Shown piece by piece: positions 45,001-64,000 of a stretch of DNA of 64,000 bases (positions are counted from its first letter, which is position 1; each line of letters begins with the position of its first letter). Location of the stretch: NCBI GenBank assembly GCA_000002435.2, contig CM018789.1; one strand, 5' to 3'. This DNA comes from Giardia intestinalis (Eukaryota). The position numbers are program-made.

Positions 45001-48000
45001 GCTTGTAAGGTGCTAGTCATGACGTCATACGCAACCCGAAGAAATCCCAGTTCGAGCAGTGCATTACAAAGGCCAGACGCTGAGCCCTTGTTGAACAGCA
45101 GCGAGTGATCGAATGCCGGCAAACTGGAGGCACCGCTTGTGTCCCTGAACCGCCGCCGGATGGACACCCGTTGCTGCCTCGTCGACTCTTCACCGGTATA
45201 AGGGAGAATGGCTGACCGAGCGATCCACAAGAGCAGCCAGGTCGCAAAGGCAAAGTGTCCACCGGGCCCCTCTGTCAGGCGATCGAGGTAGGCAGGCTTG
45301 TCCTCTGTCTCCTGTGGGGGCCTGAGAGTTGCATGCTCCGAGGACAAGTGTAATACTGCATAGAGGAAGTCGGTGAACTCGGAAGTATTGGGCTCTTCGT
45401 CAATATACGCCTCCCGCACGTAGACAAGGTGCTTGTGAAGAGCTGCATGGCCGGTCAGGAGGTGGGATACTTGCGTGTCTGTAGAGGCTACTGGCCTGGA
45501 TTGCTTATTATTGCGTCTCCGTTGGCCTTCAGATGTGTTTGGAGTCTCGTGCAGGGACTGATTCTGTTGACGGGCCCCAAAGTTCAGATCCCGCACGATG
45601 ATCATGCTCTTGTAAGCCATACGAAGGCCGGTGTAGGGGTCCTTTGGGTCTATGAACGGTATGCCATAAGACTCCGCCAGTCCAATCTCCTTCTTCGACG
45701 GATGAAAGTCTTTGAGAGGTTTGATTCTGCGGAGCAAGGGCAAGAGCTCCGTGTCCTGGAGATCGTGGCCTGCGTATATTCTGGCAAAACACTTGAGTAA
45801 GCCAACACGGCACCGAGTGGCGTCGAGAATAGACTCGGCATGGGACTGCTGCTCTCCTAGAGCCTCTACAAGCGTGCACTTTACACGAGCCACGTGCCGC
45901 TCCAGTGAATCCGCCGCTTTGTTTGCTGCAGCCAAGGCCTCCTCAAAGGAAAGTCTGGAGAGATGGTAGAGTGCACGGTTGTAGTTAAACTGATAAAGGC
46001 GTTTGTAGTCACTGTTAGACTCCAATGCGGCACAAGTGGTTCGCTCGGCTTCCTGAAGGCTCGAGGGGTCTAGAGCCACTGTGCACTGAGAAGCCGCAGC
46101 ATAGAGGTCAAGTGGGCTGCCCAAGGCGTGAGATAGATCCTCGGATCCGCGCCTGAAGAGCTTCATATTCAAGCAAATCTGACCCTTAAGAGCGCTGTAG
46201 GCCGGAAGCTGACCTGGGTGTTCAAGAAACCACGAAGCGTCTCTTCCTTCCACAAAGTCAAGATAGGCTCTTTCGAAGGGTAACGCGCGTGCTATGTTCG
46301 GTTGCAATTTCACAAATGCTGCGAGCTGCTGAATGTCTCTATCCTTGATTGCACAGTAGCAGACGGCCCGTCCGGCGCGATACTTCAGTTCCCCACCAAC
46401 AAGGTCCCAGGCTATCGCGCGAGCACGTGAAGTGTCGCTTGCCTCGAGCGCTGCGATAACATCTTGCATACTATTTTTTATCGCCATCCGTGTATTGTTG
46501 GGCCCCTGTCTACCAGGACGGCAGACCAAGTAGAGGAGCACTACTCCTAGACTGCAAGGACCTGCGAGAAGGTCTGAGCCTTGAAGCGGCCGACATGCAC
46601 ACCCGGACGGAGCAGACACCGCAAGGAACGGCCGAGGAATGTACCAGACTGTGGATGCACCAATAGAGAGGAGCCCCTAGTATGTAACCTACAACCAATC
46701 CTCGTCTCTGCACTGGCCAGGAACTGGTCGAGGCTTACTTGTGGGATTTCCAAGCGCATCTACAGGCAGGGCCCCAGCACAGTATAATATGCTTTATACA
46801 GTGACGCGTTTACTATCTAAGTACACAGCTAAGTCTACGCCTTTCCTCTACAGAGGAACCACCAGCAGAGGAAGCCCACAAGACCCCCGACTACAACGAT
46901 GACTGCGACGGAGATACCAGCTATGGCCCCTGTGCTGAGGCCGCTCTTGTTCGTGCTTCCACCAGTGCCTACTTCTGATTCTAAGCATATGACTGAACTA
47001 CCAGATGATGACACACATTGCTTGCATCCAGAGATCTTCTCTGAGCACTTCATGCACGGGCCATCAGTGGTATCGTCACCGTTTTCCTTGTAATACCCAG
47101 TGGCACAGGTCTTACACGAGCTTGCAGTACTGGGAGCACTGCACGTAGCACAAGTAGGATGACATTCTGCACAGTTGCCATCAGTTGCTGCTAAGCCATT
47201 GGCACATGTCTGACACTTACCATTGCCTCCCTGTGCATTACTACACACCTGCTTACCAGGCTGTCTATCTGTCTGATAGCAACCGCCGTCCTTGAGGAAG
47301 TAGTTATCTTCACATTGAGTGCACACCCCATTACCCATTTTAGTACAGAAAGTTGCTCGTGAACTGGCCGCACAGTCGCCGTTCAAGGGGGCCTGAGTGG
47401 AGGTCTTGCACTTTGAGCAGTATGCAGTTCCTCCTATCTGAGCCCCGCATGTCTCACAGCCAGTGCCATCTGCAGACACCTTGCACGCATCCCCGCAGGT
47501 GCCTCCGTTATTAGGATTGCTGTCATCTGTATATGTCAGTTTCTTGCCAGCAGGACAGGAACTACACTGATTGTTGGCCGGCCCAACGCACTCAGCGCAC
47601 TCAGGGCTGCATGCCTTACACTTCTTGTCATTATCTCCGTAGTATCCGCTGATGGTCGTGCAGTCAGGTACGCATTGGTTTGTAGGGGTGAGGTAGTCGC
47701 CGTCATTACATTCAGTGCAGACCTCGTTGTCTGTTTTGGGGTTATCACAGATCTTACAGTTGGGAGTATTACACTGTGTGTTAGAGGCCTTCTCGCAGCC
47801 GTCCTTCCCGCTGTTCAGGTTGAATCCCTCGTTGCACTCGCAGATGTCCGGGTTGGCCGCAGAGTTCGACGGGCAGCTGTCTCCGCAGCTTATTCCATTG
47901 AGTTGCACCTTCTGGCCGCCGTTACAGGTGAGGCACGTCTGGCCGTTGGGGCCCACAGCAGTGCAGGTCGCACAGCCGGCGCGCTTCAGCTCTTCTCCGC

Positions 48001-63129: not shown

Positions 63130-64000
63130 CCCCGGGGCCAGAGCACGGCGGGCCAGTACGAGAGGAACGCCCGCCGCGGGCCGCCAGCCCCGCGGTTGCC
63201 CGGCCGGGCAGCGCCGCGCCGCCGCGCCCGGGGGCCCTGCGCTGACCGCCTCTAAGCGCGCACCCCGCCTCGCGCCCCGCCCGGCCGCGCGCCCCAGCCC
63301 CGTGCCCCGTCGCCGAGCGGCCCCCGCCCGGGGAGACCACCCGGCGCGGCGCTCCTGTACGGCGCAGAGCCCTGCGATCGCCTGAGGGACGCGCCTGCAG
63401 AGCGCGGGGCGGGGCGCGCGGCCCACTTGCTCTGGGGGGGTGCGGGGCAGACAGACAGGCAGAGCGCGGAAAGAGAAGATTGAGGGAGTGCAGGGTGCCC
63501 CAAGGGTGGCCAGGGGGCAGTGCACGCCCACCACCGGGTCTGCCTTGCACAGAGGAGCCCGTGTGCGCAGGGGGGCGGCGCAGGACCGCAGGGGGCCCGG
63601 GGAGGCGGCCCGGGGATCCAGACAGAGAGGCGCAGGGAGGCCCAGCGCCTCCAGCAGGCACGCACGACCGGGAGACACGCCCACGTGCGGGGACGGGCGC
63701 TGGGGAGCCCGGTGCAGGAGACCGGGGGACCGCGGGGAGAGCGCGGAAGGACCCCCGGACGGCCCAGAGCAGCCGATCCCCGGGCCAGTAACACTCCGGT
63801 CTCTCCTGCGGCCTCCTGCGCCCCCGTGGCCCCGCTGCAGCAGGCGCACGCACCAGCACCCGGGGCTGCCCCAGTCGGTCCAGGGCCGGTCGGGGCCCCT
63901 CCTCGGACCGCGCCCTTCCGGGGGGCCGCCCCCACGCAGTGCCCTCCGCTGCCACATCAATAGGTTAGAGACGGACGCGGTTACATAGCCACAGGCTATC

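What the first reader, a model, noticed from the sequence alone, without database searches (positions are those of the whole stretch)
46488..64000. Chromosome-end architecture: VSP and ankyrin pseudokinase head-to-head, then truncated LSU, then a tandem rDNA array
The gene order is a repeat-containing VSP (minus strand), a divergently transcribed ankyrin-repeat kinase-fold gene (plus strand), then an rDNA unit truncated inside the LSU, followed by complete 5565-bp units to the window end. This matches what I recall of Giardia telomere-proximal organisation, where rDNA arrays abut telomeres and break into unique DNA at fixed points, and where a tandem-repeat VSP of the CRP136 toxin-like family has been mapped next to an ankyrin/kinase gene and truncated rDNA. 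That is recalled from the literature, not verified here. This arrangement is the higher-order system in the window. It places an antigenically variable surface-protein gene next to a recombinogenic, epigenetically distinct rDNA/telomere domain.
Basis: partly seen in the sequence, partly recalled or inferred. Interest (0 to 1): 0.65.

Follow-up and report, generated by a model that had tools for sequence, protein, structure and literature searches.

The report
Known Giardia CRP65–NEK–rDNA subtelomeric locus

Summary
The described order is real. It runs VSP (minus strand, 21.17 perfect 228-bp repeats), NEK-type ankyrin pseudokinase (plus strand), then an LSU rRNA gene truncated at 56627, then rDNA with a 5565-bp period. 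Only 1.33 rDNA periods lie in the window, and there are no TAGGG repeats. The window is Giardia intestinalis WB C6, from the 1,485,438-bp contig of the long-read reference. The VSP is annotated KAE8301901.1. Apart from copy number it is identical to GenBank AAB06228.1, which has 4 repeats. Adam et al. 2010 list CRP65 (vsp27, GL50803_38901) on chromosome 1 with a 228-nt repeat in 4 copies. CRP136 itself is a paralogue on chromosome 4 with 120-bp repeats. The first 429 residues of the kinase are 100% identical to AAB51601.1, probably the 'gPK' of the published 'telomere gene unit'. The kinase–rDNA junction is not chimeric: independent assemblies of isolates DH (A2) and P15 (E) show it within about 30 bp of the same LSU position. 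The surface-antigen segment between the conserved flanks differs in each lineage. Telomere adjacency and any functional coupling could not be tested here. Verdict: interpretation supported, already known, low interest.

The parts
44622..46487 (-). Last conserved 'core' gene (hypothetical protein, 621 aa). It marks the left boundary of the variable module.
   Evidence: It is collinear at 98.5% with DH, 89% with P15 and 78% with a B-like lineage. In the B-like lineage collinearity stops at window 46480.
46835..52648 (-). VSP gene CRP65 (vsp27, GL50803_38901; KAE8301901.1), 1937 aa. It has a signal peptide, repeats, a 330-aa cysteine-rich non-repeat part, a TM segment and a CRGKA tail.
   Evidence: Translation; Pfam VSP E=1.6e-76; 100% identity to AAB06228.1 over 430 aa, and the cluster includes KAE8301901.1; TAATGTT initiator at the ATG; CRP65 row in the PMC2996952 supplement.
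47777..52602 (-). Tandem array of 21.17 exact copies of a 228-bp (76-aa) repeat inside the VSP.
   Evidence: TRF reports 100% matches and 0 indels. A copy-by-copy comparison found 0 mismatches in 21 copies.
52649..53229 (.). Divergent intergenic region between the VSP start and the annotated NEK start. It extends to 53445 if the conserved Met73 is the true start.
   Evidence: ORF coordinates. DH and P15 orthologues begin at the residue aligned to Met73. Window 52936-54392 is 82% identical to the VSP-NEK spacer plus NEK of a DH paralogue.
53230..56574 (+). NEK-family kinase-fold protein with a coiled coil and about 20 ankyrin repeats (KAE8301902.1). It is a predicted pseudokinase. It corresponds to the 'gPK' plus 'ANK' genes of the older literature, read here as a single ORF.
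   Evidence: Pfam Pkinase at 105-351, Rod_CreS-like coiled coil at 370-461 and Ank repeats. Motifs AVQE / HRN / DFG. 100% identity to AAB51601.1 over 429 aa, after which the old sequence diverges. Named 'Kinase, NEK' in the cluster listing.
56575..56626 (.). 52-bp spacer between the NEK stop codon and the rDNA junction. It is partly conserved in DH and P15.
   Evidence: Alignments A1 and A2.
56627..57715 (+). Truncated LSU rRNA gene: only the 3' 1089 nt, starting at LSU nt 1451.
   Evidence: Rfam LSU_rRNA_eukarya, model positions 1891-3399. Exact identity with 62192 onward starts at 56627.
57716..59031 (+). rDNA intergenic spacer.
   Evidence: It lies between the LSU and SSU hits and has 75% G+C.
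59032..60483 (+). SSU (18S-type) rRNA gene, complete.
   Evidence: Rfam RF01960, model positions 1-1831, 797 bits.
60484..60741 (+). ITS1-5.8S-ITS2 interval. This is inferred: Rfam listed no separate 5.8S hit.
   Evidence: It is the gap between the SSU and LSU hits. The assignment follows from the standard rDNA layout.
60742..63280 (+). LSU rRNA gene, complete.
   Evidence: Rfam RF02543, model positions 23-3401, 1337 bits.
63281..64000 (+). Start of the next intergenic spacer. From 63504 on it differs from the first copy by about 20 one-base gaps.
   Evidence: Pairwise alignment of the two copies.

Best explanation
The segment is the rDNA-adjacent, very probably subtelomeric boundary of chromosome 1 of Giardia intestinalis WB C6. 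It is one copy of the published 'telomere gene unit'.

Shown here:
- The last core gene is followed by a slot holding a variant surface protein gene (CRP65), then a catalytically dead NEK/ankyrin gene.
- 52 bp after the NEK stop codon comes an rDNA unit that starts in the middle of the LSU gene and continues with a 5565-bp period, transcribed away from the unique DNA.
- The NEK-LSU joint is inherited. It sits within about 30 bp of the same LSU position in assemblages A1, A2 and E.
- The content of the VSP slot differs in each lineage.

Inferred:
- A single ancient recombination or break-repair event joined an rDNA array to unique DNA.
- The rDNA array runs on to the (TAGGG)n telomere and acts as a length-variable buffer.
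- The VSP slot and the internal 228-bp repeat change by local recombination or slippage. The 1990s clone has 4 copies and this assembly has 21, all perfectly homogenised.
- The neighbours are linked by position and history. Nothing shows that they form a regulatory system.
For: - Exact protein matches to WB reference entries on one 1,485,438-bp contig.
- VSP identical to AAB06228.1 except for copy number, and clustered with KAE8301901.1 and VSP136-3. CRP65 is listed as 228 nt x 4 on chromosome 1.
- Kinase identical to AAB51601.1 over 429 aa.
- Truncation point 56627 and period 5565.
- Same junction in DH contig AHGT01000007.1 and P15 contig ACVC01000017.1. Both are syntenic through ClpB, NEK509 and the hypothetical gene, and both end in rDNA.
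- The VSP slot differs between WB, DH and P15.
- Literature: the TGU description (PMC10999387), and rRNA genes at most WB chromosome ends (PMC7000408).
Against: - No telomere repeat is present in the window, and only 1.33 rDNA periods are visible, so terminal position is not shown by the sequence itself.
- Adam et al. 2010 counted only three subtelomeric vsp genes, all assigned to chromosome 5, so CRP65 was not classed as subtelomeric there.
- I could not read the other WB chromosome ends, because the WB assembly is not indexed in the contig look-up.
- That AAB51601.1 and AAB06228.1 come from the Upcroft/Chen papers is inferred from names, dates and the L39804 entry. No paper read here states it.
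- The 21-copy count rests on one long-read assembly.
Confidence: 0.88

Rival explanations
1. Assembly artefact: the contig is chimeric at about 56.6 kb, a repeat-induced false join between unique DNA and an rDNA read.
For: The rDNA is multi-copy, and the last 500 bp of the window show consensus noise. The P15 contig end carries an odd inverted LSU copy.
Against: Two independent assemblies of other isolates, DH (A2) and P15 (E), have the orthologous NEK followed by an LSU truncated at the same place. The spacer sequence between stop codon and junction is conserved.
Confidence: 0.02
2. The rDNA is an internal block with unique sequence beyond it, not a chromosome-terminal array.
For: No TAGGG repeat is in the window. 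Xu et al. describe an internal gap on chromosome 5 flanked by partial 18S genes, and only 4 of 10 ends reach telomere repeats.
Against: rRNA genes lie at most chromosome ends in the same assembly. The locus matches the published telomere gene unit. The protein accession numbers rise along the window and the NEK carries the highest one seen here. WB, DH and P15 sequences all stop inside the rDNA.
Confidence: 0.08
3. The arrangement is a functional system: proximity to rDNA and the telomere controls CRP65 expression, switching or repeat turnover (a position effect or an expression-site-like role).
For: The VSP slot is the only part of the locus that differs between lineages. The repeat array is perfectly homogenised and differs in copy number from the 1990s clone. 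VSP-next-to-NEK adjacency recurs in DH, GS and P15 contigs.
Against: Adam et al. 2010 report that a subtelomeric location is uncommon for vsp genes and not required for expression, and that vsp genes do not move when switched. In DH and P15 the VSP next to the NEK has the opposite orientation, so no fixed head-to-head promoter architecture is conserved. No expression or chromatin data were available here.
Confidence: 0.1

Closest known systems
Giardia 'telomere gene unit' (CRP/VSP gene + gPK + ANK, then truncated rDNA and telomere; Upcroft et al. 1997 and 2010, as summarised in PMC10999387)
   Same: It has the same components in the same neighbourhood. The kinase N-terminus is 100% identical to AAB51601.1, and the VSP is identical to AAB06228.1 apart from repeat number.
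   Different: gPK and ANK form one continuous 1114-aa ORF here; the old protein diverges after residue 441, consistent with a frameshift. The telomere end of the unit is not in the window. The original papers could not be read.
CRP136 (vsp130, GL50803_103142, GenBank L29079)
   Same: Both are clade II VSPs with a TAATGTT initiator and a long internal tandem array, and both belong to the CRP136/CRP65/VSP136-3 group.
   Different: CRP136 has a 120-bp repeat in 22 copies and maps to chromosome 4. The window gene has a 228-bp repeat in 21 copies on the chromosome-1 contig. The window gene is therefore CRP65, not CRP136.
Other repeat-bearing Giardia VSPs (vspA6/CRP170 with 195 bp x ~22; vspC5 with 105 bp x ~25)
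   Same: They share the layout: a short leader, then more than 20 near-identical tandem repeats, then the conserved 3' end. Copy number is known to vary between alleles and to be collapsed in Sanger assemblies (PMC2996952).
   Different: Those genes are chromosome-internal. This one lies 4 kb from an rDNA junction.
Giardia NEK kinase expansion, mostly ankyrin-bearing and many members catalytically inactive (Manning et al. 2011, cited from my own knowledge)
   Same: It has a Pkinase domain, a coiled coil and ankyrin repeats, sources name it 'Kinase, NEK', and it lacks catalytic residues.
   Different: Nothing unusual for the family. The orthologues in DH and P15 carry different lesions.

Membership tests
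Giardia variant-specific surface protein (VSP) | N-terminal signal peptide, many CXXC motifs, a C-terminal TM segment ending in CRGKA, and a match to Pfam PF03302 | tested here: met
   Translation shows MLVGFLLVCATVLA..., many CXXC motifs, and ...GLVGFLCWWFLCRGKA*. PF03302 E=1.6e-76.
Giardia variant-specific surface protein (VSP) | Initiator element TAATGTT or CAATGTT spanning the start codon ('VSP with INR') | tested here: met
   The minus-strand sequence reads ...CGCTAATGTTGGTAGG... at 52648. The source names the protein 'VSP with INR'.
CRP65 (vsp27, GL50803_38901, L39804) | 228-nt tandem repeat, chromosome 1, and protein sequence of AAB06228.1 | tested here: met
   The repeat period is 228. 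There is 100% identity over 430 aa, and the leader, repeat and tail are the same as in AAB06228.1. The supplement row reads CRP65, TR228, chromosome 1. Copy number differs: 21 here against 4.
CRP136 (vsp130) | 120-nt repeat in about 22 copies, chromosome 4, 1274 aa | tested here: not met
   The repeat here is 228 nt and the contig is the 1.485-Mb one.
Sarafotoxin/endothelin-like 'toxin homologue' repeat | Detectable similarity of the repeat unit to the endothelin/sarafotoxin family | tested here: not met
   A Pfam scan of two repeat units at E<=10 gave only a sub-threshold cEGF hit and no endothelin family. The published claim concerned the 40-aa CRP136 repeat, which was not available here.
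Active NEK protein kinase | Beta3 Lys (VAIK), catalytic Asp (HRD) and DFG all present | tested here: not met
   WB has AVQE, HRN and DFG. DH has AVQE and a degenerate G-loop. P15 has RCD and GLG. The neighbouring 509-aa NEK has AVKE, HRD and DLG.
Giardia NEK/ankyrin family (fold membership) | Pkinase domain followed by ankyrin repeats, with closest relatives annotated as NEK | tested here: met
   Pfam results. The hits are Giardia 'Kinase, NEK' proteins at 44-66% identity.
Telomere gene unit | CRP/VSP gene, kinase and ankyrin genes, then rDNA truncated in the LSU | tested here: met
   and the description in PMC10999387.
Telomere gene unit | The rDNA is followed by (TAGGG)n at the chromosome terminus | not testable with these tools
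   No TAGGG run is in the window. The sequence beyond 64000 is not available, and the WB assembly is not indexed.
Eukaryotic rDNA repeat unit | SSU, 5.8S, LSU and a spacer repeated head to tail | tested here: met
   SSU and LSU hits. Exact 5565-bp periodicity over 1315 bp, then gapped identity to the window end. 5.8S was not called separately and is inferred in the 258-bp interval.

The most novel reading that the evidence does not exclude
The conserved NEK-LSU joint, together with a lineage-specific VSP slot and a 4-to-21-copy change in a perfectly homogenised repeat, could mean this chromosome end is a stable boundary beside a fast-evolving surface-antigen 'cassette site'. On this reading, proximity to rDNA and the telomere promotes VSP replacement and repeat expansion. 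That would be a localised diversification site not recognised in the vsp repertoire analysis, which counted no subtelomeric vsp on chromosome 1.
Probability: 0.15. Interest if true: 0.45.

Novelty: already known. Interest (0 to 1): 0.18.

Why it matters
The practical value is correct annotation. The window is the CRP65 chromosome-1 end of the WB reference.

- The 'gPK' and 'ANK' genes of the older literature are one NEK pseudokinase ORF.
- The rDNA junction is genuine and old, shared by assemblages A1, A2 and E.
- Three modest points may be useful to Giardia genome workers:
  - the nucleotide-level conservation of the junction across assemblages;
  - the lineage-specific content of the VSP slot;
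  - the repeat count of 21 against the 4 of the original clone and the Sanger assembly.
- None of this changes how antigenic variation or chromosome ends in Giardia are understood.

Tried and rejected
- Looked for telomere repeats (TAGGG x3, 1 mismatch allowed): none.
- Tried to fetch the WB contig around the NEK and around the chromosome-3 paralogue VSP136-3, to read past the window and compare other chromosome ends. Neither is on record in the contig index, so the question of which ends carry the arrangement could not be answered.
- Tried to read Upcroft 1997, Upcroft 2010, Adam 1991 and Adam 2001: none is held. Searches for CRP136 plus telomere and for CRP65/VSP136/gPK returned nothing useful beyond PMC5355454 and PMC10999387.
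- Permissive Rfam search of 52.6-64 kb for 5.8S or other RNAs: nothing beyond SSU and LSU.
- Rfam on the DH paralogue contig L004 and the GS contig L005: no rDNA, so these say nothing about rDNA adjacency.
- Considered CRP136 identity: rejected on repeat length and chromosome.
- Considered toxin homology of the repeat: no support.
- Considered the long plus-strand ORFs through the repeat (47675-52630 and 47715-52733): rejected as antisense artefacts of a stop-free periodic sequence.
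Full report
**Observation**

- Rfam finds an LSU fragment at 56663-57714 (model positions 1891-3399), a complete SSU at 59032-60483 and a complete LSU at 60742-63280, all on the plus strand.
- A direct repeat search and a base-by-base comparison put the start of exact identity between the truncated and the complete unit at 56627 = 62192, an offset of 5565 bp. 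The first unit therefore begins at LSU nucleotide 1451 and keeps only the last 1089 nt.
- G+C rises from about 0.53-0.62 to about 0.75 at that point.
- Upstream, ORF 53230-56574 (+) encodes 1114 aa with a Pkinase domain (residues 105-351), a coiled-coil stretch and many ankyrin repeats.
- ORF 46835-52669 (-) is a VSP. Its real start is the ATG at 52648, inside a TAATGTT initiator. It has a signal peptide, CXXC motifs, a TM segment and a CRGKA tail, and it matches PF03302.
- The VSP contains 21.17 copies of a 228-bp unit without a single mismatch, at 47777-52602.

Three corrections apply.
- The window holds only 1.33 rDNA periods, with one SSU and one complete LSU.
- There is no TAGGG repeat.
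- From 63504 to the end, the second spacer copy differs from the first by about 20 one-base gaps. I read this as unpolished consensus at or near a contig end; that is an inference.

**Source and identity**

- Six proteins encoded in the window are exact matches to entries of Giardia intestinalis WB C6 (ATCC 50803), KAE83018xx/XP_0017089xx, all on a contig of 1,485,438 bp.
- The kinase is KAE8301902.1, 'Kinase, NEK'.
  - Its 90% cluster is represented by AAB51601.1, 'protein kinase [Giardia intestinalis]', 455 aa.
  - That protein is 100% identical to the first 429 residues of the window ORF and then diverges for 14 residues.
  - This is what a frameshift in an older sequence would produce, and it would explain why the literature speaks of separate 'gPK' and 'ANK' genes.
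  - In WB, DH and P15 there is one continuous ORF.
- The C-terminal 430 aa of the VSP are 100% identical to AAB06228.1, 'cysteine-rich protein', 645 aa. That protein has the same leader, the same 76-aa repeat (4 copies) and the same tail.
- The cluster of AAB06228.1 also holds KAE8301901.1/XP_001708995.2 (1937 aa, the window gene) and VSP136-3, which equals KAE8303364.1 on the 1.97-Mb contig.
- The supplementary table of Adam et al. 2010 lists CRP65 = vsp27 = GL50803_38901 = L39804, repeat 228 nt x 4, chromosome 1, initiator TAATGTT.
- The same table lists CRP136 = vsp130 = GL50803_103142 = L29079, repeat 120 nt x 22, chromosome 4.
- The window gene is therefore CRP65, a relative of CRP136, not CRP136.

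**Published description of the arrangement**

[quoted passage not shown] It cites Upcroft 1997 and 2010 and Prabhu 2007 (PMC10999387).
- The paper on the WB long-read reference states that 18S, 5.8S and 28S genes lie at most chromosome ends, and that four of ten ends reach (TAGGG)n (PMC7000408).
- The original Upcroft papers are not held.

**Is the junction real?**

I fetched the orthologous loci.
- P15 (assemblage E, ACVC01000017.1): ClpB, the 509-aa NEK and the hypothetical gene are followed by an ankyrin gene, a small ORF, a VSP (+), a 1157-aa NEK (+), and then an LSU starting at the same Rfam model position, 1891.
- DH (assemblage A2, AHGT01000007.1):
  - It is 98.5% identical to the window from 33072 to 46945.
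  - It then carries different VSP sequences.
  - Next comes a NEK orthologue at 75-90% nucleotide identity.
  - It ends with an LSU matching window 62211 onward at 99.6%.
- Alignment of the three junctions with the intact LSU shows a conserved spacer after the stop codon (…AGTCAGAGTAAACAGC…ATCTCTAC…). rDNA identity begins within about 30 bp of the same LSU position. P15 keeps about 25 more degenerate LSU-like bases, and DH starts 19 bp further in.
- The junction is thus genuine and predates the split of assemblages A and E.

**What varies**

Between the conserved hypothetical gene and the NEK, each lineage differs.
- WB has only CRP65 (-), head to head with the NEK.
- DH has a 145-aa VSP (-) with a single CRP65-like module (40% identity over 60 aa) and a CRGEA tail, plus a 563-aa VSP (+) tail to head with the NEK.
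- P15 has an ankyrin gene (-), an ORF, and an 836-aa VSP (+) related to the DH one.
- A VSP (+) followed by a NEK (+) also occurs on a DH paralogue contig, and as a single fused ORF on a GS contig.
- In a more distant lineage, collinearity with the window runs only from 34631 to 46480. This lineage is from Logan assemblies of ERR3333378 and ERR3333380, at 78% nucleotide identity. It is probably assemblage B, but I did not verify that. Nothing beyond that point matches the VSP, the NEK or rDNA. The synteny break therefore coincides with the left edge of the finding.

**Kinase**

- An alignment of kinase domains shows WB with AVQE (Lys to Gln), HRN (Asp to Asn) and an intact DFG.
- DH has AVQE and a degenerate glycine loop.
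- P15 has Lys retained but RCD and GLG.
- The neighbouring 509-aa NEK (43072-44601) has all the motifs.
- The gene is a pseudokinase whose catalytic residues decay independently in each lineage, while the fold and the ankyrin repeats persist.
- The DH and P15 proteins start at the residue aligned to WB Met73 (53446), so the annotated 72-aa N-terminal extension may not be translated.

**Toxin label**

A Pfam scan of two CRP65 repeat units at E<=10 gives no endothelin/sarafotoxin hit, only a sub-threshold cEGF match. The published toxin similarity concerned the 40-aa CRP136 repeat, which I recall from memory and could not test.

**Mechanism**

- Shown: the gene order, the truncation point, its conservation across lineages, the variable VSP slot and the perfect repeat homogeneity.
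- Inferred:
  - One old recombination or healing event joined an rDNA array to unique DNA inside the LSU.
  - The array continues to the telomere and absorbs length variation.
  - The VSP slot and the repeat array change by local recombination or slippage.
- The difference between 4 copies and 21 fits the warning that Sanger assemblies collapse such arrays and that alleles differ in copy number (PMC2996952). The 4-copy figure comes from the original clone and the 2010 table. It needs read-level confirmation.
- A regulatory role for the rDNA/telomere neighbourhood is not supported by anything here. It also runs against the statement that a subtelomeric position is uncommon and not required for vsp expression. 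The same paper counts only three subtelomeric vsp genes, all on chromosome 5, so CRP65's position 4 kb from an rDNA junction was not classed that way.

**Verdict**

The locus is annotated in the reference genome and was described in the 1990s, so it is already known. The small additions are the cross-assemblage conservation of the junction, the lineage-specific VSP slot and the repeat count.

Noticed in passing
window 63504-64000 (compared with 57940-58445): The second copy of the rDNA spacer differs from the first only by about 20 single-base gaps and one mismatch, after 1312 bp of perfect identity. This looks like unpolished long-read consensus at a contig end rather than real variation.
   Followed up: partly
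L003 13591-13949 (+) and 13947-14552 (-): At the end of the P15 contig the truncated LSU is immediately followed by its own inverted copy. It is either a palindromic rDNA junction or an assembly artefact.
   Followed up: no
L012 1-2425 versus window 46480 onward: In a B-like Giardia lineage (78% nt identity, runs ERR3333378 and ERR3333380) collinearity stops exactly at the start codon of the hypothetical gene. About 1.7 kb without long ORFs follows, then an unrelated gene for a secreted-looking protein. There is no VSP, NEK or rDNA.
   Followed up: partly
window 53230-53445: The annotated first 72 residues of the NEK have no counterpart in the DH and P15 orthologues, which start at the residue aligned to Met73. 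The 1990s protein AAB51601.1 has yet another 12-aa extension. The true start codon is uncertain.
   Followed up: partly
window 54516 onward (NEK residue ~430) versus AAB51601.1 residues 442-455: The old 'protein kinase' entry diverges and terminates 14 residues after the point where the window ORF continues into the ankyrin repeats. A frameshift in the old sequence would explain why gPK and ANK were reported as two genes.
   Followed up: partly
window 47675-52630 and 47715-52733 (+): Two ORFs of more than 1600 aa run antisense through the VSP repeat array. They are by-products of a stop-free 228-bp period, not genes.
   Followed up: yes
window 43072-44601 (+): A second, short NEK (509 aa) with intact catalytic motifs lies two genes upstream. 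It is exactly conserved in dozens of short-read assemblies, whose contigs all break just before the VSP.
   Followed up: partly
L006 13764-14201 (-): At the place of CRP65, the DH isolate has a 145-aa mini-VSP. It consists of a signal peptide, one CRP65-like cysteine module and the TM tail, and it ends in CRGEA instead of CRGKA.
   Followed up: partly
L005 11-2782: A GS (assemblage B) contig carries one annotated 923-aa ORF with a VSP domain, a kinase domain and ankyrin repeats in a row. It is either a fused pseudogene or a missed stop between a VSP and a NEK lying tail to head.
   Followed up: no
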